From NCBI GenBank assembly GCA_964502045.1, contig CAZCVC010000001.1:1-30885 (forward strand): a stretch of DNA of 30,885 bases. Reading direction: 5' to 3'. Position numbers and translations under genes: made by a program. How positions within the stretch are numbered: position 1 is the stretch's first letter; each line of letters begins with the position of its first letter. The stretch comes from an uncultured Planctomycetia bacterium (GTDB taxonomy: Bacteria > Omnitrophota > Gorgyraeia > 2-02-FULL-51-18). Positions 14,358 through 30,884 of the stretch are shown here, one piece after another. The notes under the pieces are model-generated. The model was not told the DNA's origin, did no database searches, and was given only the letters and a program-made list of their open reading frames with translations.

Positions 14358-17300
14358 TTAAGCGGACTGCGCCAGCGCCCTCGCCAGACGCGTGGCGGCG
14401 CGCAAAGCCCGGTCGATGTCCAGCGAACGCAGCCAGCGGATCACGGTGCCGAGGCGCCCGCCTACCTTTTTTAGGAATGTTTCGTCCTTGAAACCGATGC
14501 CGACGTTTTCACCAACGAAATAGCCCGCGAAGAAAAGTACCGGGTCCCGGTAACCGTCTTCGGCGACAACCATGAACCTCGAAAGCGGCGGTTTTTCGGC
14601 GCTGATCCTGCCGGAAACCGCCTCCGCTGTGTCCCCGCTTCCTGCCGAAAACGCGAACGCGATATTTTCGGGCGGCACACCGGCCTTCGTCAATGCCGTG
14701 ATCGCCGCTTTGCGGTCGGGAGAAATGTCATAGCGGACCCTCGAATCGATGCCGGCGCCCGATTGGCCGATGACGCGCAGGCGCATGCCCTGCTCCTGGG
14801 TCTTGGCCGCGATCTTCCAGAAAAGTTCCTTTTGCGGGCCGCTGTTGATCTTCGCAATCATCGTCTCTTCGATCACCATCGCCGATTTCGCCGGCACGAT
14901 GGCGGCTTCCGTCGCTGAAAGTCCGCGGAACGCGCGCATCGCGCCGCCCTCCGGCATCCCGGCGCCTTCAACCCCGAACAGGGCGTCGAGCTGTTTCAGG
15001 ATCTCGGCCGGCTCGAGCGCTTCCTTTTTGATCAGCAGGCTCGTCTCGTTCCAAATACGGCGCGTTTCCTCGAGGTCAACGGCGTCGAGCGCCCCGATAA
15101 GCGAGCGGATCTTATTCAAAAAGAGCAGGTCACGAGCATCGGCCAGCGCGAGGCCGGCCGCGGCCTTCAGTGTAAGGCCCGACGCTTGCGGATCCAAAAT
15201 GCTTTCGGCCGCGTGCGGCTGTCCGGACGCTTTTGACCGGAGCTCGCTCAAATAAACCCGCGCGGTGTCGCCTCCGCGGTCTTCGGGAGCCCGGCGGATC
15301 GCATAAAAACTCACCCCGGCGCCAAAATTCGAAGATTCCAGCGCCTTCAGATCATCGGGCGAAGCGCCGATGACGCCGACAGCGATGGGCTCAGCAAACG
15401 CCGGCGCCGCGAGCCTGGCGGCCTGCGTGTCAGGTTCCAGAAAATCCTTCTTCATGGCGGCGATGACGGCCGGGATGTCGAATGGAGCGTCCGCCCGATA
15501 AAAGACGATGGAATAATGAACGAGGCCTTCGAAGTCGAGCTTGGCGATGAGCTGCGCTTCAGGCGACGCGGCGTCCGCGGCCGCGGCCGTCGCCAAAGCC
15601 AGCGTCAGGTCCGTCGTCACCTGAACGAGCCCGGGGTCCGGCGCGGCGGCGTCGTCCGGCTTCGGAAAATGAAGCTGATAATAGGCCTCCAGCTGAGCCA
15701 GGTCGCCGGCGGTCAGCGTCAGGATCTCCGCCAGCTTGGGGTTCGCCGGAAGAGCGTCATCCGGCTCGTCGTCGGCGTCCCCCTGCGCAGACGGATCCAT
15801 AGCCTTGATAATCATGTCGAGCGGGTGCGTCTGAAGCGGCGTGCCGCTCTGCCGGAACAGGTTCGCCTTAGTGAGCAGCGACGACAATTTGGTCGTCGGC
15901 GGAGCTTTCAGGACCACTTTGACAAGATACGCGCCTTCCTCGACCGCGAAACCGAATACGCCAAACGCGTCGATCAGCTGCGACGGATCGGCGCCCGCGG
16001 CGGCGATAAGGTCGGAAATTTTAGCATCCGGCAGAGGCGCGGCCGGGACTTTCGATCCGGCCGCAATGACGCCGCCGGCGGCTTCGAGCTTCGCGCGTAT
16101 CGCTTCGGCCGCCTGGCGCCTTTCCGTCTCGAAACGGTGCCGCTGAAGCACCAGACCCTTGATCTTTTGGGCATCTCTCTGGTCGGGCCCTGTCTTTTCG
16201 ATGACGTCCCGAACGACGCGCTGCAGGAGGTCGGGGCTCACCTTAGAGTCCGGTATGTCGGTCAGGATGGCCGCCATCACTTCGGAGATCAACGCGCCGG
16301 CGCCCTTATTCGCTTTCAGAGCCTCGAAAAAGTCCGCGATTTTTTTCCGGTCGGAGGCGAATACCTTTTCGACGCCGACGATCGTCGCGTCATCTGGCAG
16401 CACCGCCTGCACGATCTCGATGACTTTCGCGTCCGGAAACGCCGCGTCGGCAGTTTTTGCCATGCGCACGACCTCGAACAATTCGATCGGATGCAGGGCG
16501 GCGATCGACGTCTTGTTCTGCACGGTCGTGAACACGAAGCCGGCGAGCGCGGCGCTCAGAGGATCGCTGTGACCGAAAGCCTGGAAAAAAATGTTGAGGT
16601 CGCCGGGTTTATCGCTGAAAGCCGCGGCGAGCTTTTCTAGCGTCGCGTCTTCGGTGAATTTCACGCCGTCTTCGTCCTCCACCATCAGGTTTTTAGCGAT
16701 CAACGTCGGGCGCACAAGGCCGAACAGGTCCTGCAGGCGGCGGTGCTCGACGATCTCTGCGACGAGGACCGGGATCGTCTTGCCGGCCGTGTGTCCGTCG
16801 CGGGCCATCAGCATGAATTCCATAGGATGCTGGGTCGCGGCAGCCGCTTCAGGCAGCGCGAGCGCAAGCTCGGCCATAAAGTTGCCGAGGCCGACGTTGT
16901 CGTCCTCGCTTTCGAAAAGAAGCGCAAGTTTCAGAGGGTCGGAACCCAACGCTGTCCGAAGCGCAGCCACGTTAGCTTTTTCGATCTTGTCGGCAAAGTC
17001 CAGGCTGTCGTCAGGACCGCCGGGCCCGCGTTCGATGACGCCGGCCAACAGGAGCGCCGCCTGGATCGCCGGTCCGATCGCGCCGTCTCCGAGCAGCTGC
17101 GCCGCTATCGCGGGCGCCTCCTTGCCACCGGCATGCGCGGTGCGCACCAGGAGCATGAATTCGAAAGGAGTCATGTCCTGCAGGACCCCGTCCGGCAGCG
17201 CCGCAGCCACTTCGGCCATGACCGGACCGAGGCCTTTATTCGGCTGATAGGATTCACAAAACGCCGGCAGCAGACGCACGTCGGGCGCAAGGCTCGCGCG

Positions 17301-20300
17301 CACCGCGAGCATGTTCGTGTTGCTATTCATCAGATAAACGCCGGGAACGGGGTTCGCCATGAGGCCGGCCTTCGCCAGCTCGGCGCGCGCCAGACGCTGC
17401 CGCATTTTGGCTTCCACGTCCTTCGCGGTCGCGTCCGCGTTCTTGCCCTCGGCTTTCGAGGTCTGCACGGTGCCGGTGAAATCGAGCGGGTGCGCGGTGT
17501 CGCGGTCCGCTTTCGTCAAAAGGCCGGCGACTTGCATCAAGAGAGGCCCGAAGCCGTCGTTGGCTTCGTTGAACAATTCGAAAAATACGGCGAGCTTGCC
17601 GGGCTCGGGCGCGAACTGGTCCGTCAATTTTGTGATAGTGACATCGTCGGCGAGCACCCATTCCCCTTTTTCGGTAGGATGAGGTACGTAAATGTTCGCC
17701 GTCTTCAGCTCCTCCATCAACGCGCGCTGCGGCACGGATCGTTTGGCGATCTCGACGATGGCTGCCTCGTTCTTTCCTTTTTTATTGGCTTCGGTTACCA
17801 AAACCATGAATTCGAACGGTTTGAACGCCGCCGCGATGTCGTCGGGGAGCCCCCTCGTGACGTTCGCCATCAGCGGGCCGAGACCTTTGTTGACTTTGTA
17901 ATTTTCGAAATACGCCGGCAGAAGCCTGGGGTCGGACGCGAGCGCATTCTTCACTTTCAGCATATCGGCGTCGGCGGCAGGCGCCGCGTTGTCGTCGGCG
18001 TCCGTCACGAAAACACCGGCGTCCTTCAGCGCGTTGAGCGCCAGCACCGGCAGCACTTCCTTTTCGACCTCTTGGACAATCCCGGCGTCGTCCTTGCCGT
18101 CGGCGTGGGCTTTCGCAACGGTAGTCATGAAATAACCGGGCGGACAGATGTCCGCGGAATTCTTGGGCAGCAGACCCGCGATGCGGGCCATCAAAACGCC
18201 GAGGCCCGTATTGGCGGGGTTCCAGGTCTCGAAAAAGTCCGCGATCTTGGTCGGATCGCCGCCGAGCGCTTCCGTCAACTTCGTCATCGTGGCGTCCGGC
18301 GCTAACGAGATGCCGCCCGATTTGTCCGGGCTCTCGACACAAACAGCCGCCGCCTTCAAGAGTTCGAATATTTCCTGCTGGCGAAGCGCCAACTCGATCT
18401 CGGCGGCGGCGCCGGCAGCGTCTTTTCCGGCTTTGTGGAACTCGCGCGCGAAGTACATGAAACGTCCCGGGTGAAGAGTGCCCCGGACCGCCGACGAAAG
18501 TTTTCTCGCCGCTTCGTCCATGAAAGCGCCCAGGCCTTTGTTCGCATCGTTCCACCATTCGAAGAACGCGGCCATCCTGAGAGCCTCGTCGTCAAGCGCG
18601 GCCGCCGTCTTGGCCAGCGTCGCGTCGTCAGCGAGCACCAGCTGGTCCTTCTCGGTCGGGTGTTTTACGATGATCCCCGCGTCTTTCAACATCTCGACCG
18701 TTTCCTCTTGGCGTGTCGTGTCATCGACGTATTTCGCGATGCCGGCCGCGTCCTTGCCCATTTTTTTGGCCTGCAAAGCGACGCTCATAAAATGAATGGG
18801 AGAGATCAGATCAACCAGCGGCTTGGGAAGAAGCAGCGCGGCCTGTGCGAGCGCCTTGCCTGAACCCCGGAAAGTGGCGCTCCAGCCGTTGAAGAACGCC
18901 GCCATCTTGATCTGGTCGCCACCGAGCGCGGCCAGGAAATCCGTCATCGTGGCGCCGTCGCGTATCCTGATGCTCGAGGCGTCATCGGGCCGAGGGACGA
19001 GCAGGCCGGCGTCCCTCAACAGCTGGCGCGCCGCATCGCTTTCCTTCCGGTGAGTCGGTTCGAAACGCGGTTTCGTGCCGGCAGGCTCGACGCCGGCCCC
19101 GGGGACCAGCAGCGCCGGATTTCCGGTGAAACGCGCCATGTCGAGTGCGGCCCAGTCGACCGTTTTGACGACCGTCGTGCCGACCGTCGTGGTGAGCGTA
19201 AACTTTGTTTCGAGCTGTCCGCGGACCGTCTCGACCTCGTCGCCGTAAAGGCCGTAGTCCGAACCTTTGCCGGCCAGCGCCATGTATTCGCGGACCGCGG
19301 AATCGCCCTTTATTTCCCGAAGCATTTCCCGCGCCCTCCATTCTGTGAGACCTTCGCTGAGCTCCTTATTCTGAAAATCGACCGAAAGATGCCCGCCTTC
19401 ATGCAGCAGCAGGCCCAACAACTGGTTTTCGGTGACGGTCGGATCGGCCGGCAGCAGCACAACGCCGGCGCCCCAAAGCGCGATTTCTTTGATCCCTTTC
19501 TTCACCGACTGATATTTAATGCGTCCCTTTTCGTCCGGCACGGCGATCTGCAGCTCGTCCCAGGCTTTGGCGCTGATCGGGACGAGCTGCTTGTCGAAAT
19601 CGGGAAATTCGCCGAGGAACGCGGCATCCTCCTTGCGGCCCAGCGCGGCGGCGCGGTCCCGGGCGCCCTCGTGGATCTCCTTGAGCTTTTTCTTCGCGGC
19701 GGCCACCGCGTTCATGTAAGCGGACGTTTTTTTGAACTCGTCGTCCTGTAGCGCGTAGTACTGTCTCAGCGTGATGCAGTCAGCCTTGATTTCCTGGAAC
19801 ACGCGTGCCGGCTGAATGCCCTGGTCCCGTATCAGGCGGGTCGCGATCTCGATGCGCCTGTCGATGTCATAATTGAAGCGTGTTTTCAGCACGTTCGTGA
19901 TGTAGTCCGAGGTCACGTCCCTGTCTTTGGCCGCTTCACGCGCCGCGTCGTCAGGCAGCTTGGCGAGCTTCTCAGCGTTTTCCTCTTCATAGACGTCGTT
20001 AGCGACTCCGGCCAATGTTTTTGAGACAATTCTCACCACCCTCTGCTCGACGTCGTCGAGCGTGACATTGACCGGCACATAATTGACCGGAGAACCGTCC
20101 TTGAAGATCAGCAGCGGGTCTTCGGAAGCGTTGGGCAGTGTTGCCGCGTACAAGCTATGGCCCGAAGTGACGCTGAGCGACAGAAGAGATCCGTCCAGAT
20201 CCATCGAAAACTTCACCTTCCCCTTGTCCGTGATCTTTTCGAACTGCTTGAACCATTCAGCGACCTTCACGCGGACGCCGTTGACCATCACCGTCTGCTT

Positions 20301-23300
20301 CTTTTCGTTCCCGAACAGATTCATTACGGCCGCGAGCTGCTCGGCGCCGGTGCCGGTCTTCAAGATGTCCGCGAGCTTGGTCGCCCATTCGGAGAGACCG
20401 TACTCGGGGCCTTTAGAGTCTTTCGTCGGGCCCTCGGAATCTTTCGCGGCGACCTTCAGCTCCGACGGCTTCGGGACCTTGTTCTGTCTTTTCTTGATCT
20501 CGGCGCGCGAGTCGGCAGTCCGCGCCTGCGTCCTCCAGCGCTTGAACCTGCCGGCCGCTTTCAGCTGCCGCTCGTCATCGCGGGTGATTTGGTCGTCGAT
20601 CTTTTTATCGAGCTTGTCGTGCTCCTTATCGAGATAAGCGGCAGCCTTCGCCAGCGCGCCGGCGGGATCGTCGGGATAGCCGGCGAGAATGCTCTTGGCC
20701 TGCGAGTAGAGCCCCGAGAGTCCCGGGTTTTCCGTGCTGAGGTCGTCCAGCAGCTTTTCGAACTTGCTGATCAGCGAAGCATGCACCAGTTTTCTGGCGA
20801 GCTTGCCCGGCAGATCACCGCCGGCGACGACGTCGGTCATCACGGCCGGGTCTCCGGCGAAAAACGAGACCAGCACGTCCGTTTCGGTCAAATTCTTGTC
20901 CAGCGCCTTCGTTTCGATACCGGGTATTTTGTCCAGAATACCGCTGGAACCGCGCGTGCGCGCCTTGTCGCGCGCAAAACGGCGGTAGGCGGTCTTGGAA
21001 CCGGCGGCCTCGAGATAAACCAGCGGCAGGAGCCCATCCCGGCTCTGAGACGGCGCATTCAGCAGCAGTCCCGCTTCGATCAGGTCTTCTTCCGCTTTCT
21101 CGGCGTCGTCGCCGCTGACGATCACGATGCCGAAAGCGCGGCGCGCCAGGTCGATCGTGTCTTTCAAGCGTTCCGTATCCGCGCCGGCTTTGAGCGGGAC
21201 GACGCTGCCTTTCATGGAAAGATAAGCGTCTTTGTTTCCGGAGTGCCCGAATCCGAGACGCGCGGCGGAGATGCCGGCCGCGCCGGCGGCGCGCTTATAG
21301 ACAGTTTCGACTTTGAGGTCGGCTTTGTCCACGACGGCTAGAAATCCGGCGTCTGTGGTCTTCGCCCAGTCAATATCGTCGACGATGGCGGCCAGCTTTT
21401 TGATCGCGTTGGCGTAAAAATTGACGATGTCGTCGCGCTGGAGATTTTCGGTGGATACTTCTTCGGCCAGCGCCAGCGCCTGGCGGCCCAGGGCCGCATT
21501 GAGCCTTTTCCAGAACTCTTTGTCGTCTTCGTCGACGGCCGGGACCGCCATGCCCATCATCGCGTAAAGAACCTTCCGGATCCTGGCGTCGTCCGGCTTT
21601 TTCCCGGGCGCTCCGCCGGCAGCCGTGTCGAGCGGGGTTTTTGGGAAAAACTCCGGGTCCCACGGCAGGGCGTCATCATCGCCGGGCGGGTTCAGAAGCT
21701 CGCGGTCGAGCACCGCGCGCAGCGCGGGCAGGATGTGCGAGTCAGCCATTTTTTGCACGTCCTCGATCTGGTTGTCGAGAGGAAGCGCCGCTTTGAGCGT
21801 GGGGACCTTGCGCATCGGCGCGTCTTTAGTGTCCAGGCTAAGCGTCGCGAAGTCCAGCCTAGGCTCCCCCTTCTCATCCGCCTTATCATTCAAGATGGCC
21901 TGGACCGTGGTACGGAATTCTGTGCCGCCATCGCTCTCGAAAATAGATACGAGACCCATCATGACGTTGCGCATCCCTTCGAGATTTATTTCCTTTTCCT
22001 TGTCGCTCAGCGAAAAGCGGTCCACGCTGTCGGTAAAATCCAGCACCGGCGGTTTGCCGTTGATCTTAGGGGTGTCCGGGTGCTTCGCCCACGCTTCCAG
22101 CCTGTCCTTGAATCGGCCCTTCAACTTCTGCATGATATCGAGCGTGGGGATCTTGTAGCTTTCTTTCCACCCGTCCGTGTCGGGGGCCATCGAGTGATAG
22201 CCGTAGATCTGCTCGAGCGCCATCAGGCCGTCGCGGCCCAGCATCGACACCAGATGCGCGATGAATTCCTTGTCGCCGCTGGAAGTGCCGCGGTAGGCGC
22301 GGGAGCCGATGTTCAGCTGGTGCAGTTCGTGGCCGAATTCGTGCGTGGTCAACATGTTCATTTCGGCTTTGAGGATCGCGTCGAGCAGCGCCTTCTTGTC
22401 ATTCTTCAGGCTTTCGAAATCACGGCCCGCGGCGTCCTTGATGATGCGGCGGAAAAGCTTGGTCCTGAATTCGGCGTCCTGCTGCAGTGAATTGATCTTC
22501 TCCCGGATCTCCTTGGCCTCCGCGGCGAGATCCTTCTCAGCGATCTTTCTCTTGCTGCGCGCGCCGATCAGCGCCTGGTTGATCTGCGTGACGAGCCCCT
22601 CGATCTGCTCGCCGCGCTTGCGCGCAAACACGTTGATCATATATACGGGGATCTGCAGGACCCCTCCGACCGTGTACTCGGCGCGGATGTCCCGCTTGAA
22701 ATCGTCTTCGAATTCCTTCCAGTTGTACCCGAGGTTATTTTCCGTCGTCAGACGTATCAACCCGTTGGCTCCTTTTTCGCGCACGGCGGGAGGGGCGCCC
22801 GGCGCGGCGGGCGTCTTGGGGGCGGCCTGGACCTTCCCCACCAGCTCCTCATAGTCCTGCCATATCTGTTCGAGCAGCGCCGTAATCGTGCCGTTAGCTT
22901 TGTCCAGCATCTGGTCGCGGACGTTGTCGCGGATCTTGTCGACGTAGATCGGCACGAACTTGCCGTTGCCTTTGCTTTCAGCGACGTTGATCGAAGCATC
23001 GAGTTCGTCGGGAAGGCCGTCCAGGTTTTCCCAGAATACCGCTTCGACGGACCTCACGTTCTTCTCGGGCCCGCAGACGAGGTCGCGCTTCTGGCGCGCG
23101 TCGACCTGCTTGACGCTCAAAAGAGTCGTGCCTTTTCCGGTGACGCGCACGTACAGATAGAACGGCTGGCCGACTTTCTCGAAATAATCGTTCAGCTGGT
23201 TCACCTCATGCTCGACCTTGTCCTCGACGTCGATGCTGTTGCTTTCCATGTAATTGAGAATGCGCCGCATCGCGTCGCGGACGTAGCGGTCCTCGAGCCG

Positions 23301-26300
23301 CGCGATCATCGCCAGGACCTGGCGGCGTTCGACGTCGTAGGCGTTTCCCGAATGGTATTTCGCGAGCATGAAGGCCAAGCCGTCACGGCAGAATCTTTCG
23401 AATTGGTCGCTCAGGAACTGGTCGCGGGCGACCTCGTCGTCGGGCATCGTCGGAAGCGCATCCATGTACCCGGGAGAAAAACGCGACGTCGTCAGCGCCG
23501 AATCGCGGCGGTAGGCCGCGAGGGCCATCACCTCGTCACCTGTCAGCGAGCCGAAAGTGACGACCGTTTCGCCGGTGAGCTGGACGAAATCGGACTTTCT
23601 TTCCTCGATCAGTTGACAGATATTCTCGAATGGCTTCTCGCTTGTCGTCTGGGAAGGCGCGAATGCCTTTTCGAACTTCGTGTGCAGCGCAGCCATCTCG
23701 GCAAAATCACGGGCGTTACCCGCATGACGGCCCTCGTCCGGCTCAGGCAGGCGGTCGAGGCGCCTCTCGATCGATTCGAGCTTGTTGCGGCCTTCGAGCA
23801 GGATCTCTTTTATCTTCGGGCTGGCGGTGATGTCGTTTTCACTGCCGATGAAGTCCTTGTACAGCTTTTGCGCGCGCGCGATCACGCCCTCGAAAACGAC
23901 CTGGGCGGTTTCAAGGCCGGTGCGGGCGCGGTTGGAGAGGTTGATATCTTCGGTGCTGCTCGTGTTGCCCTCTTTGACGAAAATTTCGTTGTTCATCCCT
24001 TCCAACTGCTTGATGAGGCTGGCGTTTCCAATGGGATCCTCTTCCCTCGCAGCGACGAGGGCGCGCACGACATACTGCGTCACGCCCGTGTACATGAGGC
24101 CGGCCGTCCAAAGCCGCATCATCGCCTGGTGTTTCTTCTGGATCAGGTTCCATTCCGACTGGAAGACTGTGCAATCGAGCTGGTTTTTCTCGTCCAGCAG
24201 AACCTTCAGGGCCGTCTCCTTGTCCATCCGCGCGAGCTTTTCGAACAAAGCGCGCGTCTCGAGGTTGAAATACGGGCCGGCCACGAACTTCAGCATCGCT
24301 TCCTTCATCTGGAAAAAATCGTTCAGCATCGCGCTGATCGTGCTGCCGTCGATGACGTTGGCCCAGGCGACGTTGTACGTGCCGCCCTTCGACATGTCAA
24401 AGCGGCCGCCGCGGCCGAACAGCTGCATCAGTTCGCCTCCGGTGAGGCGCTGGTTCACGTTCACGATCAGCAGATCGGACTGATAGTCGTTGCCGCGCGT
24501 ACCGACGAGATCGGTGAAAATGATGCGGCGGCCCTTCTTCACGTTTTTTACGGTATTGTCGGACTCGCGGGCGTCGCTGGTCTTTCTGCCGTCGATCATC
24601 TCGAGCATGTCCGAATATTTCCCTCCCTTCGAATGGATGTAATCGGCCAGTCCGGCCTTCAGCGCGTCGTCCATTTCGTTGAACGAGATCAGGATCGAGG
24701 AATCCGTGCGCAGATCCCCTTTCTTCCGCGCCACTCCGTTCAGGTCGACTTCATCCTTCTCGTGGCGGATCAAATCGCCTTTGAGGAAGCCTTCTCCGCG
24801 ACGGACGCCGTTCTCGTCTAACACGTCGTCGGCGTATCGGGGACCTTCCTGGGAGTTGAGGAAAAGATCGAGCTCGTTCTTCAAAAACTGCATTTTTTCG
24901 GCAAACGTCGAGCGCTCGAACGTGCGGAAACGCTTCGACGGCGTCTCGAGCGTCCGCCCCAAAGCGTCTTTGTCCATCATGCGGTCCCGGAAACCCTTCC
25001 AAAGGTCGAAGCCGACGCTTTGAGTTATGGTCTTGAAATTGTCGACGTCGAACACGCCCACGCCCTGCATCAGCAGACCGAACTCCACGACCTCTCCCTG
25101 CGTGGCGCTGGCCATGCGGATGAAGTTTTCGTTATCGCGCCGCCACGTCGTCCTGGTTTCCTTGATCCAGGCGGCATTTTTGGCCTCCCATTTTCTGGCC
25201 CACTCTTCTTTCGCGGCGGCGTCGTCCCCGAACTCTTTTTTCTCCATGTCTTCCTGCATCTTCTCTTCGATCTTCTCTTTACCGGCTTCTCCTAGCTCCC
25301 CTACCACCTGCTTCATGAATGCTTGATTTTTCTTCTCCCACTCCGCGACCCACGCCTTTTCCGCGGCCTCGGTACCGAACACCTCCTTCTTCAGGTCTTT
25401 GGCATATTGCCTGCCGATCCTCTCCTCGACGAGTTCCGAGATGCCTTGCTTGCGGAAAAGCTCGAAGCCCGAAACGCCGCCCGACGTATCCAGCACCTGC
25501 ACGCTGTTGAAATCTTCGGCAAAAGTGAGCTTGGATTTTTCGACCGCGTCGGTGGTCTCGAGGTTCAACTGCGTGCGGCGGTGGTTCAGCGCCTGGAGCA
25601 GCTGCAGGTCGCCGGGTATCTGGCTCGTCTTCAGCTGGCCGGACGCGACGTAGATGAAACGGTTCTTTTCCTTTTCGAACGTCACGTGGCGGAAGCCGTC
25701 CACTTCGCCGGCGCTCAGAAGGGACACCGCCACGACGGTCTGTAGATGTCCGCGGTCAAGGCCGTCCAGTCGGAAACCCCTGTAATCGTCGTCGGCGCCG
25801 ATCCTGAGCCGCTTGTCCTTCCTGAAATATTCGGTGACGCCCTCGTTGATGAGCGTCTCGCGGTCGCTCAGTTTGATATAAACGATCGGTTTGGCGGAGT
25901 TGTCGTAATTTTCCTTAAAATACTGCAGGTCGTCCGTGACTTCGACGTTCAAGTTGGCCCATATCCCGACCTTCGTGCCGTCGAGCCTTTCGACGGTCGC
26001 ATTGCGCTCGCCGCGCACGTCGATGCCCTTCATCATGAGACCGTTGACTTCAATGCGGATGTTGTTCTGGTCGATCGCTTCGCGGCGGCGGCGCTTCATG
26101 ATCGCGACCTTTTCTTTCTCTTCAACCGTCATGTCTTTCTCTTCCTTCTCGCCAATGGAACCGACGTAATCCGAAAGGTTGGTGTAGAGCGAGTCGCCCT
26201 CGTCGACGTATTCGATGATAGTCTCGAGCTCCTCGCATATCTCGTTGTTCAGCGTGCGGCTGTTCTGCCTCAGAAATCCCGCTGACTGCATGTCGATGAC

Positions 26301-29300
26301 GAAGATCTTGTACGGCGTGGCCTCCTTGAGCGTTCCGGTCTCACCGGTCTTGGCGGACAGATCCGTTCCCGCGCCGGCCATTTTCTCGGCGCCGTCCTCC
26401 GCCTTCGGGCCCCGGAGAAGCCTCAGCACGCCCTCCTCGTCATGATCTTTCTGCAGGCGGTCCAAAAGCTCGGTCTTGCCGTCGCCGAGGCGCGCTTGCC
26501 CGCCGGTCATCATGCGGATGAAGCGCTTGTGCTCGTCGCTCGAGAGGAACTGCTCGCCGATGGCGAGGTTCGGCACGTTGATGAACACGGCGCCCTGCTG
26601 CAGCGTACGGCGCCCGTTGATCATCCGCACTACCTGCTGCGCCGCCGCGGCCAACTCAACGAACGTTTTGCCGGTACCGGTGCCGGCTGCGAGATTGTAG
26701 TCGCGGATCTTCGCGATCGAGACCAGCTGCTTGTTCATGAAATATTTTCCGGTGGCACGCTTGAAGATGAACGCTGTCATGATCGTTTCTTCCTGTTCGG
26801 TCAGGTTGAAAAATGAGTTGGGGATCTCGGACTCGTTGCGGTTGGCCAGAGCCGCGGCCAGGTTCTTTCGCGTGCTGTTTTCATCCAGCTGGACGTCAAG
26901 CTGTATCATGCGTTCGAAGAGCGCATACGTCACGTCGTTGACCGGTACGGCGTCCTTGAATTTCAGCTTGCCATCGCGCAGCAGGTCGAATCTTTTGCCC
27001 ATCGACTCGGCCGCGAGCTTCTGCATCATTTCCAGCACGCCGTATTTCCCGTTTTCCTCAGTAGAGGATTCATCGCCGTACACGAGCCTTTCGACGTCGG
27101 GCGCGTCCTTTTCTTTCGAGGGCACTCTGGACCGGATCATTTTCTGAAGCTCTGCCAGCTGTTCGGCCGTGACGCGGCCCGACAGGAAGTGTTTCGTGTA
27201 AAAACCAAGATAGTCGGCGCCCGCATTCGCGGCAATGGCTCTTTTGAGGGCGCCTTCCGCCGTCGCGATCTCCGCGTCGGTCGCCAGATCGCGCGCTTTG
27301 CGGGCCTTCATGATGTCGCACTCGAGCCGCGCGATCTCGACCGCCATCGCTTTTTTCTCGTTAGGGTCGAGATCCTTCATCGCGATCTGGGTGTTGGCGG
27401 GCCCGTCCAGGAATTGCTTCGGACTGGCGGGGTCGAGCGTGAGCTTCCTGAGCCTTTTTTCGAGCAGTTCGAGCGAAGCGATGTCGGCAAAAAAGGAAGC
27501 AAGCGCGCTCCTGACCGCGTCAGGGTGCAGTTCTTTGTCGTTTGCCACGTCGCGATCCTTGTGATAGACGAAGGGCCCCGGGGTACGGTCCTCTCCGAAC
27601 TTCTGGAACTGGGCGGCAAACGCTTTCATCTCCGTTTCGTTTTTGGCGTTCTGGAAGCCTTCGATCAGGGCGTAGGCATCCTTTTCGTCCTCGCGGAGCA
27701 GCTGACGCTGGGCACCGAGACGGCTCAAGCGGTATGTCTTCGGCACGCCGTCGGTGTTGTTGAACGTCACCTCGAGCTGCAGGCGCTCGTTCTCGCCGGA
27801 AGCATCCATCACCGTTTTGCGGATCTGTTTCTTGTCGACCTGTTTGAACCACTCTTCCACGAGCAGACGCTGCGTGTCAGCCTGGTACTCTTCCAGACGC
27901 ATGCGCTCCGCCTCGAGCTTCTGCGTGAGGTCGAGGTTCGAGCTGCTGTGCAGCCAGCCCTGACGGTATTCCAGGCCCTCGAAAACACGCGTGCCGTCGG
28001 CCGCGACTCCGGTGAAAAGTTCCAACAGAAGGTTGTTATATACCTTCAGATTTTTATCGGCGATTGCCTGTTTCATGCGGCCGATCAGCGCTTTGACCGG
28101 CGCGCTTGAGAAAAACTTGTCAGTCTCTGTTTTCGGCGTCCCGTCGGCCACGGCCTGCATGGCGTCCAGCAGCACTATACAATCGTTGACGACGGCCTGG
28201 TTCTCGGTGTCCTTCTCGCCGAGACCCCGCACTTTCAGGAATAACTCGTAGCGGGCCTTCTGGTTGACCGCGTCGTCGGGCAGAGAATCGGCGCGGCCTT
28301 TTCCCCATTTGATCAGCTTGGCCCGGAAAACCCCGACCGCCTGGCGCAGGTGCTTGAGCAGCGCCTGTATCTGTTCTTCAGGGAGCCCGGTACCCTTCAG
28401 CTGGTCGCGGAAATTGATCTCGCTGATTTGGCCGTGTTCGTTGATGAGATCGAAGATGATCTCGAAAAGGAGGGCCGCCGCTTTTTCCCTGTCGGTCGCG
28501 AGCAGCCTTTGAAAATCGAGCAGACGGTCGTAAAGGGCGGACGCCGGGGGGGCCGGGGTGACGTCCTGGGCGGTTTCGTCCAGTTTTTCATTTTCTTCGG
28601 CGGTATCGAGCTTGACCGGAGGCGAACGCGGTAAAGACGGGACCGGCACGCCGTCATCGGCATCCGCCCGGTCTTCGACAACGGGCCCCGGCACGGGAGG
28701 GCCTGAGTCCGCGTCCGCGGGCGCGGTATCAGCAACATCCGCGTCGGCGCTCGCGGAAGGGATCAAGCGAAGTCTCGACAGTTCGGCGAATGCCGCACGC
28801 GGTGTGAACATGGTGTCGGCTCCGTCCGCGTCGTCGAGGTTGATCCGAAAATCGTCAGAAAAAATCGTGAGCCATACTGTCCAGGTCTTTTCGTCCGCGC
28901 CGTGCTTCAGTTCGAGCGCGACGGCGACGGCGCCGGACGCTTCTTTCTGCAACGTCGCAAACTCGGCCAACCCTATCAAATTCACCGCCAGCGCGCCTTC
29001 AAGGTCGAGAATCACATCGTAAAGTTCAAGCAGTGTCGTGGCGGCGGCGATGCGGGCGCGGATGAACTCGGGCGTCACCGCGGACTTGGCGCTGAGATCA
29101 CCTGACGGCCGGCGGTCTTGGACTACAGGCGCTGGGGCGGTCTGCTGCATTTCCTGTCCGGCCTGCTGCTGATCGGCGGCCGTCCACGTGCCGTCGAGGA
29201 TGCGGCCGGCGATATTCTGCATGAGGCGGGCGCGGGCCTGGATCTTTTCCGCATTTTGCCGGATACCGGCGGCATCCAGTTTTTTTGAAAGATTGTAATA

Positions 29301-30884
29301 TTTGACGGCGTTGCCGGCATAGGCGACCGCCAGAAAATGGCGCGCGTCCCCGCGCTCGCGTCCGATCTGGGTGATGATGCCGACGATATCCTCCGCCGTG
29401 AAGCCGGCCTCCGTCAGCTCGCGCAAGACCTGAACCATCGGCGCGATCGCGCCCTGCATTTCGGCCATGTCGGCGTCGTTCACGTCGCTGCGCGTCTCAC
29501 GGTAGGCTTTGGGATAGCCGGCAAGCCGGTTCCGAAAAGATGCCCAGGTCTCCTGCGTCATGGCGCCTTCGGATATCATCGCCTGCAGTTCGTCCAAAAG
29601 GCTGTTCCAAGAGGAGCTGGTGCGTGCACCGTTCCGGTTCAGGTCCGCGTGGGCCCTTTCATGGCGCCGCGTACGCGCCGAGGCGTCATCCGAGACCGAT
29701 TCGCTTCCGTATTCGAAAGCGATGCTCAGACCCAATTCCATCGCGATGACCGTCGAGGCGCCGAACGCTTCCCGGGTTTCGCCGAGTTCCTGCATGTGCG
29801 CTTTCATGACGACGTCTCCGGACGCGTAGTCGGCGGTTTCCCAGTAAACCGTGCCCGTGGCCAGGTCAAACTTGGAGTTTTTCAACGCGTCAGTCATCAT
29901 CGCCTCGGTGACAAGGAAAGTACCCGAACCGTCCAGCGCGTCGACTTGCACGCCGGACCCGCAGATCTTTTGCAGGATCCCGCGATAGACCGTTATTTTA
30001 AGAAATTCGACGGCGCGCGCTTTCACGGCGTCGTCGCCGCTGTTCAGGCCGTTCAGGATGCGCCGGATACGCGCGTCGAATGCGTCGCGCAGGATCTGCA
30101 GTACGCGCCGCGAGGCGACGTCGGCGTCGGACTCGCTCATTCCGTAGCCGCCGGCCGTGCCCGCGGCTTCGAAGCGGGTACGCATTTCCGGAAGGATGCG
30201 GTTGTGAAGCGACCTCAGGATGTCCGTCAGGTATTTTTCGGTCGCAGCGCTGGAAAAGGATTCAAGGCCGTCGATGATCGCGGCGATAAGCTTGATGGCC
30301 GAGACGATGTCTGCGGAAGTCCAGCCGTTGAGCGCGCCGTGACGTCCGATCTTTTCTTTGAAAAAACTCAGAAGTTCCTGTTCTTCGGTCAGGGTCAGGG
30401 CCGTGCCGGTTGCCTTTTTATCGCCGATCAAACGCAGGAACCCGCCCAGCTTGGCCAAGCGTGCGGCCGCGTCGTCCGGCGCCTCGCCGGAGGCATCCGC
30501 ATCCAAAATCGCGTCAGTGCTTACGGTCAGTCCTTTGACGCGCGCCAGTCGCCGGACTTCTTCGACCGCCGCGGACGTCAGCGTGTTGTTGACGCGCAGC
30601 TTTCCGGCGGCGTCATTGCTCAGCACATTGCCGATGATCTCGCGCAACGCGCGTGCCGAATCTGTTTCGCCGGCCTTGAGCGGCTTAAGCTCTCCGGTTT
30701 TGAATATCTCCGAGGCCTCCGCGAGCGCGGATGTGGCGGCGTCGCCTTTCAGCGCTTCCCCTTCGAACACGACCTGCCCCTCCTTCAGCACGGTCCTGAA
30801 AAGACGCGGACCCTTGTCCGTGTCGAAATAAAGCAGCACTTTGCCTTTCGAGTAAAGGACCCGCTTTCCTGCAGCGACGGCCTC
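14358..30884 (-). CDS. Giant multidomain protein (gene A), at least 5,509 aa, 5'-truncated; three HExxH motifs, SecA-like ATPase, ~110-aa tandem repeats
   Basis: ORF track 14358..30839 (5493 aa). The frame stays open for 15 more codons upstream of the GTG to the window edge (EAVAAGKRVLYSKGK), so the true start is outside. Stop TAA at 14358-14360. Confidence 0.96.
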   Translation of the reverse strand, partial: EAVAAGKRVLYSKGKVLLYFDTDKGPRLFRTVLKEGQVVFEGEALKGDAATSALAEASEIFKTGELKPLKAGETDSARALREIIGNVLSNDAAGKLRVNNTLTSAAVEEVRRLARVKGLTVSTDAILDADASGEAPDDAAARLAKLGGFLRLIGDKKATGTALTLTEEQELLSFFKEKIGRHGALNGWTSADIVSAIKLIAAIIDGLESFSSAATEKYLTDILRSLHNRILPEMRTRFEAAGTAGGYGMSESDADVASRRVLQILRDAFDARIRRILNGLNSGDDAVKARAVEFLKITVYRGILQKICGSGVQVDALDGSGTFLVTEAMMTDALKNSKFDLATGTVYWETADYASGDVVMKAHMQELGETREAFGASTVIAMELGLSIAFEYGSESVSDDASARTRRHERAHADLNRNGARTSSSWNSLLDELQAMISEGAMTQETWASFRNRLAGYPKAYRETRSDVNDADMAEMQGAIAPMVQVLRELTEAGFTAEDIVGIITQIGRERGDARHFLAVAYAGNAVKYYNLSKKLDAAGIRQNAEKIQARARLMQNIAGRILDGTWTAADQQQAGQEMQQTAPAPVVQDRRPSGDLSAKSAVTPEFIRARIAAATTLLELYDVILDLEGALAVNLIGLAEFATLQKEASGAVAVALELKHGADEKTWTVWLTIFSDDFRINLDDADGADTMFTPRAAFAELSRLRLIPSASADADVADTAPADADSGPPVPGPVVEDRADADDGVPVPSLPRSPPVKLDTAEENEKLDETAQDVTPAPPASALYDRLLDFQRLLATDREKAAALLFEIIFDLINEHGQISEINFRDQLKGTGLPEEQIQALLKHLRQAVGVFRAKLIKWGKGRADSLPDDAVNQKARYELFLKVRGLGEKDTENQAVVNDCIVLLDAMQAVADGTPKTETDKFFSSAPVKALIGRMKQAIADKNLKVYNNLLLELFTGVAADGTRVFEGLEYRQGWLHSSSNLDLTQKLEAERMRLEEYQADTQRLLVEEWFKQVDKKQIRKTVMDASGENERLQLEVTFNNTDGVPKTYRLSRLGAQRQLLREDEKDAYALIEGFQNAKNETEMKAFAAQFQKFGEDRTPGPFVYHKDRDVANDKELHPDAVRSALASFFADIASLELLEKRLRKLTLDPASPKQFLDGPANTQIAMKDLDPNEKKAMAVEIARLECDIMKARKARDLATDAEIATAEGALKRAIAANAGADYLGFYTKHFLSGRVTAEQLAELQKMIRSRVPSKEKDAPDVERLVYGDESSTEENGKYGVLEMMQKLAAESMGKRFDLLRDGKLKFKDAVPVNDVTYALFERMIQLDVQLDENSTRKNLAAALANRNESEIPNSFFNLTEQEETIMTAFIFKRATGKYFMNKQLVSIAKIRDYNLAAGTGTGKTFVELAAAAQQVVRMINGRRTLQQGAVFINVPNLAIGEQFLSSDEHKRFIRMMTGGQARLGDGKTELLDRLQKDHDEEGVLRLLRGPKAEDGAEKMAGAGTDLSAKTGETGTLKEATPYKIFVIDMQSAGFLRQNSRTLNNEICEELETIIEYVDEGDSLYTNLSDYVGSIGEKEEKDMTVEEKEKVAIMKRRRREAIDQNNIRIEVNGLMMKGIDVRGERNATVERLDGTKVGIWANLNVEVTDDLQYFKENYDNSAKPIVYIKLSDRETLINEGVTEYFRKDKRLRIGADDDYRGFRLDGLDRGHLQTVVAVSLLSAGEVDGFRHVTFEKEKNRFIYVASGQLKTSQIPGDLQLLQALNHRRTQLNLETTDAVEKSKLTFAEDFNSVQVLDTSGGVSGFELFRKQGISELVEERIGRQYAKDLKKEVFGTEAAEKAWVAEWEKKNQAFMKQVVGELGEAGKEKIEEKMQEDMEKKEFGDDAAAKEEWARKWEAKNAAWIKETRTTWRRDNENFIRMASATQGEVVEFGLLMQGVGVFDVDNFKTITQSVGFDLWKGFRDRMMDKDALGRTLETPSKRFRTFERSTFAEKMQFLKNELDLFLNSQEGPRYADDVLDENGVRRGEGFLKGDLIRHEKDEVDLNGVARKKGDLRTDSSILISFNEMDDALKAGLADYIHSKGGKYSDMLEMIDGRKTSDARESDNTVKNVKKGRRIIFTDLVGTRGNDYQSDLLIVNVNQRLTGGELMQLFGRGGRFDMSKGGTYNVAWANVIDGSTISAMLNDFFQMKEAMLKFVAGPYFNLETRALFEKLARMDKETALKVLLDEKNQLDCTVFQSEWNLIQKKHQAMMRLWTAGLMYTGVTQYVVRALVAAREEDPIGNASLIKQLEGMNNEIFVKEGNTSSTEDINLSNRARTGLETAQVVFEGVIARAQKLYKDFIGSENDITASPKIKEILLEGRNKLESIERRLDRLPEPDEGRHAGNARDFAEMAALHTKFEKAFAPSQTTSEKPFENICQLIEERKSDFVQLTGETVVTFGSLTGDEVMALAAYRRDSALTTSRFSPGYMDALPTMPDDEVARDQFLSDQFERFCRDGLAFMLAKYHSGNAYDVERRQVLAMIARLEDRYVRDAMRRILNYMESNSIDVEDKVEHEVNQLNDYFEKVGQPFYLYVRVTGKGTTLLSVKQVDARQKRDLVCGPEKNVRSVEAVFWENLDGLPDELDASINVAESKGNGKFVPIYVDKIRDNVRDQMLDKANGTITALLEQIWQDYEELVGKVQAAPKTPAAPGAPPAVREKGANGLIRLTTENNLGYNWKEFEDDFKRDIRAEYTVGGVLQIPVYMINVFARKRGEQIEGLVTQINQALIGARSKRKIAEKDLAAEAKEIREKINSLQQDAEFRTKLFRRIIKDAAGRDFESLKNDKKALLDAILKAEMNMLTTHEFGHELHQLNIGSRAYRGTSSGDKEFIAHLVSMLGRDGLMALEQIYGYHSMAPDTDGWKESYKIPTLDIMQKLKGRFKDRLEAWAKHPDTPKINGKPPVLDFTDSVDRFSLSDKEKEINLEGMRNVMMGLVSIFESDGGTEFRTTVQAILNDKADEKGEPRLDFATLSLDTKDAPMRKVPTLKAALPLDNQIEDVQKMADSHILPALRAVLDRELLNPPGDDDALPWDPEFFPKTPLDTAAGGAPGKKPDDARIRKVLYAMMGMAVPAVDEDDKEFWKRLNAALGRQALALAEEVSTENLQRDDIVNFYANAIKKLAAIVDDIDWAKTTDAGFLAVVDKADLKVETVYKRAAGAAGISAARLGFGHSGNKDAYLSMKGSVVPLKAGADTERLKDTIDLARRAFGIVIVSGDDAEKAEEDLIEAGLLLNAPSQSRDGLLPLVYLEAAGSKTAYRRFARDKARTRGSSGILDKIPGIETKALDKNLTETDVLVSFFAGDPAVMTDVVAGGDLPGKLARKLVHASLISKFEKLLDDLSTENPGLSGLYSQAKSILAGYPDDPAGALAKAAAYLDKEHDKLDKKIDDQITRDDERQLKAAGRFKRWRTQARTADSRAEIKKRQNKVPKPSELKVAAKDSEGPTKDSKGPEYGLSEWATKLADILKTGTGAEQLAAVMNLFGNEKKQTVMVNGVRVKVAEWFKQFEKITDKGKVKFSMDLDGSLLSLSVTSGHSLYAATLPNASEDPLLIFKDGSPVNYVPVNVTLDDVEQRVVRIVSKTLAGVANDVYEEENAEKLAKLPDDAAREAAKDRDVTSDYITNVLKTRFNYDIDRRIEIATRLIRDQGIQPARVFQEIKADCITLRQYYALQDDEFKKTSAYMNAVAAAKKKLKEIHEGARDRAAALGRKEDAAFLGEFPDFDKQLVPISAKAWDELQIAVPDEKGRIKYQSVKKGIKEIALWGAGVVLLPADPTVTENQLLGLLLHEGGHLSVDFQNKELSEGLTEWRAREMLREIKGDSAVREYMALAGKGSDYGLYGDEVETVRGQLETKFTLTTTVGTTVVKTVDWAALDMARFTGNPALLVPGAGVEPAGTKPRFEPTHRKESDAARQLLRDAGLLVPRPDDASSIRIRDGATMTDFLAALGGDQIKMAAFFNGWSATFRGSGKALAQAALLLPKPLVDLISPIHFMSVALQAKKMGKDAAGIAKYVDDTTRQEETVEMLKDAGIIVKHPTEKDQLVLADDATLAKTAAALDDEALRMAAFFEWWNDANKGLGAFMDEAARKLSSAVRGTLHPGRFMYFAREFHKAGKDAAGAAAEIELALRQQEIFELLKAAAVCVESPDKSGGISLAPDATMTKLTEALGGDPTKIADFFETWNPANTGLGVLMARIAGLLPKNSADICPPGYFMTTVAKAHADGKDDAGIVQEVEKEVLPVLALNALKDAGVFVTDADDNAAPAADADMLKVKNALASDPRLLPAYFENYKVNKGLGPLMANVTRGLPDDIAAAFKPFEFMVLVTEANKKGKNEAAIVEIAKRSVPQRALMEELKTANIYVPHPTEKGEWVLADDVTITKLTDQFAPEPGKLAVFFELFNEANDGFGPLLMQVAGLLTKADRDTAHPLDFTGTVQTSKAEGKNADATAKDVEAKMRQRLARAELAKAGLMANPVPGVYLMNSNTNMLAVRASLAPDVRLLPAFCESYQPNKGLGPVMAEVAAALPDGVLQDMTPFEFMLLVRTAHAGGKEAPAIAAQLLGDGAIGPAIQAALLLAGVIERGPGGPDDSLDFADKIEKANVAALRTALGSDPLKLALLFESEDDNVGLGNFMAELALALPEAAAATQHPMEFMLMARDGHTAGKTIPVLVAEIVEHRRLQDLFGLVRPTLIAKNLMVEDEDGVKFTEDATLEKLAAAFSDKPGDLNIFFQAFGHSDPLSAALAGFVFTTVQNKTSIAALHPIELFEVVRMAKTADAAFPDAKVIEIVQAVLPDDATIVGVEKVFASDRKKIADFFEALKANKGAGALISEVMAAILTDIPDSKVSPDLLQRVVRDVIEKTGPDQRDAQKIKGLVLQRHRFETERRQAAEAIRAKLEAAGGVIAAGSKVPAAPLPDAKISDLIAAAGADPSQLIDAFGVFGFAVEEGAYLVKVVLKAPPTTKLSSLLTKANLFRQSGTPLQTHPLDMIIKAMDPSAQGDADDEPDDALPANPKLAEILTLTAGDLAQLEAYYQLHFPKPDDAAAPDPGLVQVTTDLTLALATAAAADAASPEAQLIAKLDFEGLVHYSIVFYRADAPFDIPAVIAAMKKDFLEPDTQAARLAAPAFAEPIAVGVIGASPDDLKALESSNFGAGVSFYAIRRAPEDRGGDTARVYLSELRSKASGQPHAAESILDPQASGLTLKAAAGLALADARDLLFLNKIRSLIGALDAVDLEETRRIWNETSLLIKKEALEPAEILKQLDALFGVEGAGMPEGGAMRAFRGLSATEAAIVPAKSAMVIEETMIAKINSGPQKELFWKIAAKTQEQGMRLRVIGQSGAGIDSRVRYDISPDRKAAITALTKAGVPPENIAFAFSAGSGDTAEAVSGRISAEKPPLSRFMVVAEDGYRDPVLFFAGYFVGENVGIGFKDETFLKKVGGRLGTVIRWLRSLDIDRALRAATRLARALAQSA
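15795..19035 (-). repeat. About ten tandem ~105-115-aa protein repeats in gene A (eight full, two degenerate)
   Basis: Units begin LLRDAG, MLKDAG, LLKAAA, ALKDAG, ELKTAN, ELAKAG, LLLAG, LIAKNL at about 330-nt spacing. They share DAT...AL..D...FFE...N.GLG.LMA...LP...HP.EFM...GK...I. Confidence 0.9.
19340..19440 (-). other. Zincin (gluzincin-like) motif 3 in gene A
   Basis: LLLHEGGH (19389-19403) followed by SEGLTEW (E at 19353-19355). Confidence 0.7.
22255..22360 (-). other. Zincin-like motif 2 in gene A
   Basis: LTTHEFGHELHQ (HEFGH 22329-22343) with downstream DKEFIAH (E at 22266-22268). Confidence 0.65.
24330..26760 (-). other. SecA-like SF2 ATPase module in gene A
   Basis: Walker A AAGTGTGKT (26664-26690), YVDEGDSL (DEGD 26193-26204), SAT (25101-25109), TDLVGTRGND (24486-24515, cf. 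SecA TNMAGRGTD), QLFGRGGR (24402-24425, cf. QLRGRAGR). Confidence 0.75.
29480..29700 (-). other. Zincin-like motif 1 in gene A
   Basis: TRRHERAHADL (HERAH 29649-29663); candidate distal Glu in DMAEMQG. Confidence 0.5.

What the first reader, a model, noticed from the sequence alone, without database searches (positions are those of the whole stretch)
24330..26760. SecA-like motor embedded inside a giant protein
Seen: beyond the generic SF2 motifs, the long insert between motifs II and III contains FIYVASGQLKTSQIPGDLQLLQALNHR (cf. SecA PPXD [27 protein letters not shown]). It is followed by VLDTSGGVSGFELFRK (cf. TLASITFQNYFRLY). This points to SecA rather than a DNA/RNA helicase. Known: SecA is a stand-alone protein translocation ATPase. 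Inference: a built-in motor for export or unfolding of the giant protein or for engaging host SecYEG, or a toxin-like ATPase.
Basis: partly seen in the sequence, partly recalled or inferred. Interest (0 to 1): 0.75.

Follow-up and report, generated by a model that had tools for sequence, protein, structure and literature searches.

The report
Divergent helicase-type ATPase in giant protein
A real but very divergent ATP-driven motor of the helicase/SecA superfamily sits inside a bacterial protein of more than 5,500 residues, but no test showed it to be a SecA, and embedded SecA-like motors in such giant proteins are already published.

Summary
Residues 1380-2230 (window 24195-26747) form a superfamily-2 (SF2) ATPase. 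All catalytic motifs are intact, and about 340 residues lie between motifs II and III.

The specific SecA claim fails every sequence test:
- No SecA Pfam model hits any of 14 family members, even at E<=1. DEAD, ResIII, Helicase_C and T1R_D3-like models do hit.
- The quoted peptide similarities to SecA are at chance level (p=0.36 and 0.99).
- Profile-profile probability against SecA is at most 24%.

Fold and language-model searches put SecA among the best matches, but tied with RIG-I-like, Snf2, DinG and DEAD-box proteins, and the models are poor (pLDDT 55-60).

The module belongs to a small unannotated family. Its close members occur only in this genus and in a few metagenome proteins. More distant full-length relatives (hhalign 99.3%) sit in other giant ORFs of the phylum.

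I read it as a giant-protein-specific SF2 motor whose place within SF2 is unresolved; a SecA origin is possible (about 0.3-0.4). The general idea, divergent SecA-like ATPases in giant proteins, was published in 2023. Earlier scan notes found concern this same window only, not other DNA.

The parts
14358..30884 (-). Giant ORF (P0001), 5,508 residues, 5' end runs off the contig. It hosts the ATPase module.
   Evidence: Full-length homologues P0003 (5,840 aa) and P0005 (5,148 aa) carry the module at aa 1887-2629 and 1617-2374.
24195..26747 (-). SF2 ATPase module, aa 1380-2230: RecA1, an inserted domain, RecA2.
26661..26696 (-). Motif I / Walker A (aa 1397-1408; catalytic Lys 1406).
   Evidence: G, G and K are invariant in 14 sequences. 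Coordinates.
26547..26603 (-). Motif Ia (aa 1428-1446), of the helicase-like V-P-N...Q type.
   Evidence: This N-terminal part of RecA1 is where hhalign aligns the family to DEAD-box helicases.
26295..26417 (-). Lineage-specific low-complexity insertion (aa 1490-1530), absent from P0003, P0004, P0006 and P0007.
26145..26222 (-). Motif II / Walker B (DEGD) with the conserved segment that follows it (aa 1555-1580).
   Evidence: D-E is invariant. Predicted as a beta strand in model 2.
25449..26144 (-). Conserved inserted domain between motifs II and III (aa 1581-1812).
   Evidence: Conserved across groups A and B. Mostly low pLDDT. No PPXD signal.
25131..25448 (-). Helical insertion with an internal duplication (aa 1813-1918). 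Full length only in this species and G004, shorter or absent in other members.
   Evidence: Predicted helices with pLDDT 74-85.
25035..25130 (-). Motif III (SAT) with the following helix and strand (aa 1919-1950).
   Evidence: The T is invariant. hhalign places it on SecA's motif III.
24390..24707 (-). RecA2 core with motifs IV, V and VI (aa 2060-2165).
   Evidence: In-register Smith-Waterman alignment to a DEAD-box RecA2, p=0.007. eIF4A match at E 0.39. Helicase_C and T1R_D3-like hits.
23985..24389 (-). Conserved helical extension after motif VI (aa 2166-2300), including a predicted 51-residue helix.
   Evidence: Only the SecA rows of the VIA search extend over this region.

Best explanation
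Residues 1380-2230 of the giant protein are a catalytically competent superfamily-2 (SF2) ATPase. The order is RecA1, a family-specific domain of 200-340 residues inserted between motifs II and III, a variable linker, RecA2, and a conserved helical extension.

The module belongs to an unannotated family that occurs only inside multi-thousand-residue proteins of this phylum. That includes a close group A (this genus and a few metagenome proteins) and a distant group B (other giant ORFs). By the tests that define the family it is not a SecA. Its position within SF2 is unresolved: its sequence motifs resemble helicases, while its domain topology resembles SecA.

Shown: the motifs, their conservation, the RecA2 fold, the position of the insert, and the family's distribution.

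Inferred mechanism: ATP binding and hydrolysis at the RecA1/RecA2 cleft opens and closes the two lobes, and the inserted domain serves as a substrate clamp, so the module pulls on or remodels an extended polymer. The context is an N-terminally anchored giant protein of the same class as relatives that carry Pfam-recognisable SecA-type motors. [quoted passage not shown]
For: Motifs and their invariance.

The family is tiny. A whole-library phmmer search of 1.84 billion representatives returned 7 proteins at E<=0.001: P0003, P0004 and P0006-P0009 are family members, and P0010 is a spurious repeat protein. None of 300 other genomes of the class has the module. It is present in same-genus G004 (80% identity) and G002 (47%) but not found in G001, G003 (97% complete) or G005.

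Group B: profile hits in 14 of 400 other genomes of the phylum, most of them inside open frames of 3,054-21,902 aa. Full-length homology by hhalign at 99.3%, E 4e-20, over 597 columns.

Pfam across 14 members: Helicase_C in 9, DEAD in 6, ResIII in 6, T1R_D3-like in 4, and no SecA family.

Context:
- The N-terminal leader of about 500-640 aa is shared. The G008 giant protein, which carries a Pfam-detectable SecA_DEAD (PF07517) module, aligns to P0002 at 54% identity and to P0005 and P0003 at 39% and 36%.
- Five genomes with group B modules have only the canonical SecA by PF07517.
- In five genomes with PF07517-type giant modules, the only match of the family profile is one of those modules.
- Published work reports divergent SecA-like domains in most giant proteins (10.1101/2023.11.21.568195).
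Against: SecA is the top or joint-top match in several weak searches:
- Foldseek: 3iqy at E 3.4e-4 and 4ys0 at E 1e-4, both with probability 0.99.
- Atlas fold search: the best TM by query, 0.42, goes to a cluster carrying all three SecA Pfam families.
- Language-model features: the nearest named cluster is SecA_DEAD/SecA_PP_bind, score 0.88, 172 of 256 features shared.

Group B carries a SecA-like motif III (GMSGTA) and a T-N in motif V. hhalign's best alignment to SecA runs in register from just before motif III to beyond motif VI (P 8.6e-4). The module may therefore be an extremely diverged SecA.

Both AF2 models are poor (pLDDT 54.6 and 59.8), so fold evidence cannot settle the subfamily. 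No substrate evidence of any kind was obtained. No transmembrane segment lies in the 5,508 residues seen.
Confidence: 0.55

Rival explanations
1. It is a true but extremely diverged SecA: NBD1 with a PPXD-derived clamp, then NBD2, then a scaffold-like helix. On this view it descends from the same stock as the SecA_DEAD modules of other giant proteins, and it drives the giant protein or a partner through SecYEG or another channel.
Confidence: 0.3
2. It is a nucleic-acid-dependent helicase or translocase of the DEAD/ResIII type, recruited into the giant protein and acting on RNA or DNA.
For: Pfam hits to DEAD, ResIII, Helicase_C and T1R_D3-like. A weak NCBIfam hit to Csf4 (a DinG-type helicase), E 9.8e-4. 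The PDB profile search finds HsdR 3h1t (E 0.0011) and XPB. hhalign to DEAD-box RecA1 gives 60-74%. RecA2 aligns in register to a DEAD-box protein, p=0.007. The top VIA rows are Snf2, DEAD-box and DinG proteins.
Against: All these hits are below the curated cut-offs and cover only the generic SF2 core. Canonical SecA proteins of relatives also hit the DEAD model at 26-33 bits. No nucleic-acid-binding accessory domain was found anywhere in the protein. The family occurs only inside giant, N-terminally anchored proteins. No Fe-S cysteine cluster of the XPD/DinG type is visible between motifs I and II.
Confidence: 0.3
3. It is a decayed, non-catalytic remnant, or a chance set of motifs.
For: No curated family model reaches its threshold.
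Against: All catalytic residues are invariant across sequences that share only 15-39% identity. The full-length homology has E 4e-20.
Confidence: 0.03

Closest known systems
SecA, and the 'divergent SecA_DEAD' modules reported in Omnitrophota giant proteins (West-Roberts et al. 2023, bioRxiv 10.1101/2023.11.21.568195)
   Same: A two-RecA SF2 motor with a large domain inserted between motifs II and III. It is embedded in a multi-thousand-residue protein that shares its N-terminal leader with a relative's giant protein carrying a Pfam-detectable SecA_DEAD module. Like the published modules, it has no recognisable scaffold/wing domain.
   Different: It is not recognised by PF07517, PF01043 or PF21090, whereas the relatives' giant modules score E 1e-13 to 1e-52. 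There is no detectable PPXD similarity. Motif Ia, and motif III in group A, are helicase-like.
DEAD-box and ResIII / type I restriction (HsdR) SF2 ATPases
   Same: These give the best, though sub-threshold, profile matches for both RecA lobes. The module has SAT as motif III, T-D...R-G-x-D as motif V and G-R-x-G-R as motif VI.
   Different: Those families have about 30 residues between motifs II and III, not 200-340 (general knowledge of the families). Motif II here is DEGD or DE[IV]H. The module never occurs as a stand-alone protein in the collections searched.
XPD/DinG/Csf4 helicases (Arch domain inserted in the first motor domain)
   Same: A large insertion in RecA1 (that the Arch domain lies between motifs II and III is from my own knowledge). 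A weak Csf4 hit. DinG appears among the tied fold matches.
   Different: No Fe-S cysteine cluster is visible, and there are no DEAD_2 or Helicase_C_2 Pfam hits.

Membership tests
SecA | NBD1 recognised by the SecA_DEAD model (PF07517) | tested here: not met
   No hit for P0001 or for any of 14 family members at E<=1. The search of the window's own genome finds only the housekeeping SecA on another contig. A SecA profile run with --max finds nothing.
SecA | A domain inserted in NBD1 between motifs II and III | tested here: met
   About 340 residues lie between motifs II and III in P0001, and about 195 in P0007.
SecA | That inserted domain is a preprotein cross-linking domain (PPXD; PF01043) | tested here: not met
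   No PF01043 hit. No hhalign alignment over the insert. The insert scores at chance against SecA (p=0.98). Language-model search of the insert alone gives no SecA cluster. The fold of the insert could not be judged because its pLDDT is mostly below 50.
SecA | NBD2 recognised by P-loop_SecA (PF21090) | tested here: not met
   Helicase_C and T1R_D3-like match instead. The Smith-Waterman alignment to SecA NBD2 is out of register, p=0.37.
SecA | Helical scaffold and wing domains after NBD2 | tested here: inconclusive
SecA | Overall fold closer to solved SecA than to other SF2 proteins | tested here: inconclusive
SecA | ATPase stimulated by preprotein or SecYEG | not testable with these tools
   Needs biochemistry.
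Superfamily 2 (SF2) ATPases | Motifs I, Ia, II, III, V and VI in order on two RecA-like lobes | tested here: met
DEAD-box helicases | Pfam DEAD and Helicase_C above their cut-offs, a D-E-A-D motif II, and short II-III spacing | tested here: not met
   The scores quoted with their cut-offs are all below them: DEAD 13.2 bits for P0001, 21.7 for P0003 and 25.2 for the G002 homologue, against a cut-off of 26; Helicase_C 17.9 against 23.5 for P0006. Motif II is DEGD. The II-III spacing is 195-340 residues.
XPD/DinG | An Fe-S cluster domain (four Cys) between motifs Ia and II, and Pfam DEAD_2 / Helicase_C_2 | tested here: not met
   No cysteine cluster is visible in that stretch of the translation, and there are no such Pfam hits.

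The most novel reading that the evidence does not exclude
Giant, N-terminally anchored proteins of this phylum use two alternative built-in SF2 motors in the same kind of protein. One is the published SecA_DEAD-type module. The other is this unannotated family (groups A and B), which has its own 200-aa clamp-like insert. This second family either arose independently from a helicase-type ancestor or is a SecA diverged beyond recognition. Either way it would be a second molecular solution for handling a multi-thousand-residue polypeptide.
Probability: 0.3. Interest if true: 0.6.

Novelty: new variant of a known kind. Interest (0 to 1): 0.4.

Why it matters
How bacteria make, fold, anchor or export proteins of 5,000 to more than 20,000 residues is not known. 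The embedded ATPases are the most obvious mechanistic handle. This work shows that part of them are invisible to the SecA Pfam models used in the published surveys, so those surveys undercount the motors. It also shows that a distinct, conserved SF2 family exists whose insert domain has no recognisable relative. It also shows that motif-by-eye similarity to SecA is not evidence: the quoted matches are at chance level.

Tried and rejected
Sequence searches that gave little or nothing:
- Pfam and NCBIfam on P0001 in four pieces gave only a weak DEAD hit and a weak Csf4 hit.
- phmmer and profile searches against PDB sequences gave eIF4A at E 0.39 for the single sequence, and nothing useful for alignment A1. 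The A6 profile found AAA+ proteins through their Walker A motif, then HsdR and XPB.
- BLASTP and phmmer against the genome's own SecA, relatives' SecAs and giant SecA-type modules found nothing.
- hhalign of A1, A3 and A4 against SecA aligned only the Walker A region.
- Two further homologous-protein searches with alignments returned only known members.
- The first search for related loci attempt with A3 failed because it had no conserved stretch. With A4 it found only the two same-genus MAGs.
- A local HMM competition among SecA, DEAD-box and other helicases gave scores of 10 bits or less, so nothing could be discriminated.

Structure:
- Both AF2 models were of low confidence, so the insert fold could not be judged.

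Leads rejected or left open:
- The Smith-Waterman 'motif III versus DEAD-box' result (p=0.013) turned out to be an out-of-register alignment to motif VI. I do not use it.
- P0010 from the representative search is a spurious repeat-protein hit.
- I looked for positional orthology between this module and SecA_DEAD-type modules by searching the downstream 750 residues in relatives. That region is also restricted to this genus.
- The language-model search of the insert alone pointed weakly at DUF4765 and ADP-ribosyltransferase-like clusters (score 0.83, low recognition). That is chance level by the tool's own calibration and no Pfam hit supports it.
- The phylum-wide PF07517 listing shows only the per-genome match counts and the best rows, which are all ordinary-length SecA genes; 359 further matches are not listed, so it could not be cross-tabulated by place.
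Full report
**What is in the window.** The window is one whole contig (C1) of a 1.54-Mb, 81%-complete MAG. It is filled by two co-oriented minus-strand giant ORFs. P0001 (14358-30884) has 5,508 residues and is open at its 5' end. P0002 (1-14013) has 4,671 residues and is open at its 3' end. The finding lies in P0001 at about residues 1376-2185. Both quoted peptides are there, at aa 1743-1769 and 1797-1812.

**Anatomy of the module.** Residues 1380-2230 carry, in order:
- Walker A (aa 1397-1408)
- a helicase-like motif Ia
- a lineage-specific low-complexity insertion
- motif II (DEGD)
- a conserved insert (aa 1581-1812)
- a helical insertion with an internal duplication (aa 1813-1918)
- motif III (SAT)
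- a variable linker
- motifs IV to VI (aa 2060-2165)
- a conserved helical extension

Coordinates are and the alignments. Compact relatives (P0006, P0007) lack the lineage-specific pieces but keep about 195 residues between motifs II and III.

**The family.**
- An exhaustive phmmer search of 1.84 billion representatives found seven proteins at E<=0.001. Six belong to the family and one (P0010) is a spurious repeat protein. No SecA or helicase was among them.
- Among species-representative genomes, the module is in same-genus G004 (80% identity) and G002 (47%, identical to P0004). It was not found in G001, G003 (97% complete) or G005, nor in any of 300 other genomes of the class.
- A profile of the family then found weak matches in 14 of 400 other genomes of the phylum, most of them inside open frames of 3,054-21,902 residues.
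- After I re-fetched those places, each showed one module with the same spacing of about 540-580 residues from Walker A to motif VI.
- hhalign gives full-length homology between this "group B" and the P0001 family: 99.3%, E 4e-20, 597 columns.
- In the joint 14-sequence alignment (A6), the catalytic residues of motifs I, II, III, V and VI are invariant at 15-39% identity. The module is therefore under selection as an ATPase.

**Is it SecA? Sequence tests say no.**
- Pfam gives P0001 only a DEAD hit at E 0.076, and NCBIfam a weak Csf4 hit.
- Across all 14 members at E<=1, Pfam reports Helicase_C (9 members), DEAD (6, best 4.9e-7), ResIII (6, best 2.7e-5) and T1R_D3-like (4, best 5.8e-5). It reports no SecA_DEAD, SecA_PP_bind or P-loop_SecA.
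- By contrast, genuine SecA-type modules in giant ORFs of relatives are found by PF07517 at E 1e-13 to 1e-52, and they align to a SecA profile over positions of about 86-555.
- The family profile searched against PDB sequences lists a type I restriction R subunit (E 0.0011, on RecA2), XPB and MDA5, but no SecA among the top 60.
- hhalign against canonical SecA gives 1.9% for the P0001 family. For the joint profile it gives 23.6% (P 8.6e-4; in register from just before motif III to beyond motif VI) and 9.4% on NBD1.
- hhalign against DEAD-box helicases gives 60-74% on RecA1 and 7.5-10% on RecA2.
- hhalign against giant SecA-type modules gives at most 40%. None of these comparisons discriminates.
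- RecA2 aligns in register to a DEAD-box protein (p=0.007) but not to SecA.

**Structure and language-model evidence is equivocal.**
- The two AF2 models were poor: pLDDT 54.6 for P0001:1380-2350 and 59.8 for the compact P0006:90-720. The insert is mostly below 50.
- Foldseek puts SecA first or second (3iqy at E 3.4e-4; 4ys0 at E 1e-4; probability 0.99). It is tied with RapA, RIG-I/MDA5/LGP2, Hef and DinG, and TM-scores are at most about 0.26.
- The Atlas fold search gives its best TM by query (0.42) to a cluster carrying all three SecA families, just ahead of a DEAD/ResIII cluster at 0.38.
- Language-model features put a SecA_DEAD/SecA_PP_bind cluster first (0.88, 172 shared features) and DEAD/ResIII/Helicase_C_2 clusters next at the same score.
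- The insert alone gives no SecA signal.

**Context that keeps a SecA-like role alive.**
- The full-length homologues P0003 and P0005 start with one hydrophobic helix and have no convincing transmembrane segment afterwards.
- Their first ~500 residues, and the first 635 of P0002, are homologous to the N-terminus of the G008 giant protein: 36-39% identity for P0003 and P0005, 54% for P0002. That protein carries a Pfam-detectable SecA_DEAD module about 220 residues further on.
- Five genomes with group B modules have only the housekeeping SecA by PF07517.
- In five genomes with SecA-type giant modules, the only thing the family profile hits is one of those modules (E 0.0025, covering the region upstream of Walker A plus Walker A itself).
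- This either/or pattern rests on few, related and incomplete genomes.

**Comparison with the literature.** West-Roberts et al. (bioRxiv 10.1101/2023.11.21.568195) already report that most giant genes of Omnitrophota encode divergent SecA DEAD and preprotein-binding domains without scaffold or wing domains. They propose a role in exporting the giant protein itself. A 2026 preprint lists a PF07517 architecture cluster among giant proteins. What is new here is that this particular motor is not one of those Pfam-detectable modules. It belongs to a separate, unannotated SF2 family. The record titles of two same-genus MAGs read "uncultured Planctomycetia bacterium". I did not establish the phylum.

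**Verdict.** My estimates are:
- about 0.9 that this is a functional SF2 ATPase of a giant-protein-specific family
- about 0.3-0.4 that it is SecA-derived
- about 0.45 that its substrate is polypeptide, against 0.35 for nucleic acid

Noticed in passing
window 12100-14013 (-), P0002 aa 3-635; also L016 (G008:C31), P0003 and P0005 N-termini: A shared N-terminal leader of about 500-640 aa, beginning with one hydrophobic helix, heads different giant proteins. P0002 is 54% identical over this leader to the G008 giant protein that carries a SecA_DEAD module. P0005 and P0003, the full-length homologues of P0001, match it at 39% and 36%.
   Followed up: partly
window 1-14013 (-), P0002: The second giant ORF is a chain of enzyme-like modules. 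Pfam finds NUDIX (2 stretches), guanylate kinase, and the pyruvate kinase barrel (below its cut-off) and C-terminal domains.
   Followed up: partly
window 25131-25448 (-), P0001 aa 1813-1918: A helical insertion just before motif III contains an internal duplication of about 23 residues. Its full length is present only in this species and G004.
   Followed up: partly
P0009 (413-aa metagenome protein): In this fragment, the RecA2 lobe and helical extension of the family are followed directly by what looks, by eye (GGEEF motif), like a GGDEF diguanylate-cyclase domain. I did not check it with Pfam.
   Followed up: no
window, P0001 aa 408, 2848 and 3828: Three HExxH motifs. The one at aa 2848 lies in the block conserved with P0006 and P0007, downstream of the ATPase.
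   Followed up: partly
genus level (G001-G005): The whole giant protein is patchy and evolves fast. It is 80% identical in G004 and 47% in G002, and was not found in G003 (97% complete) or G005. G005 instead has a PF07517-type module in a 1,141-aa open frame.
   Followed up: partly
P0006:236-470 (insert domain): Language-model neighbours of the insert alone are DUF4765/EspN and ADP-ribosyltransferase-type clusters at 0.75-0.83, with low recognition. That is chance level by the tool's calibration and is unsupported by Pfam.
   Followed up: partly
L028, L029 (same-genus MAG contigs): Record titles call these MAGs 'uncultured Planctomycetia bacterium'. Yet the genomes are 1-2.3 Mb and the phylum holds open frames of up to 21,902 aa, which looks more like what is published for Omnitrophota.
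   Followed up: no
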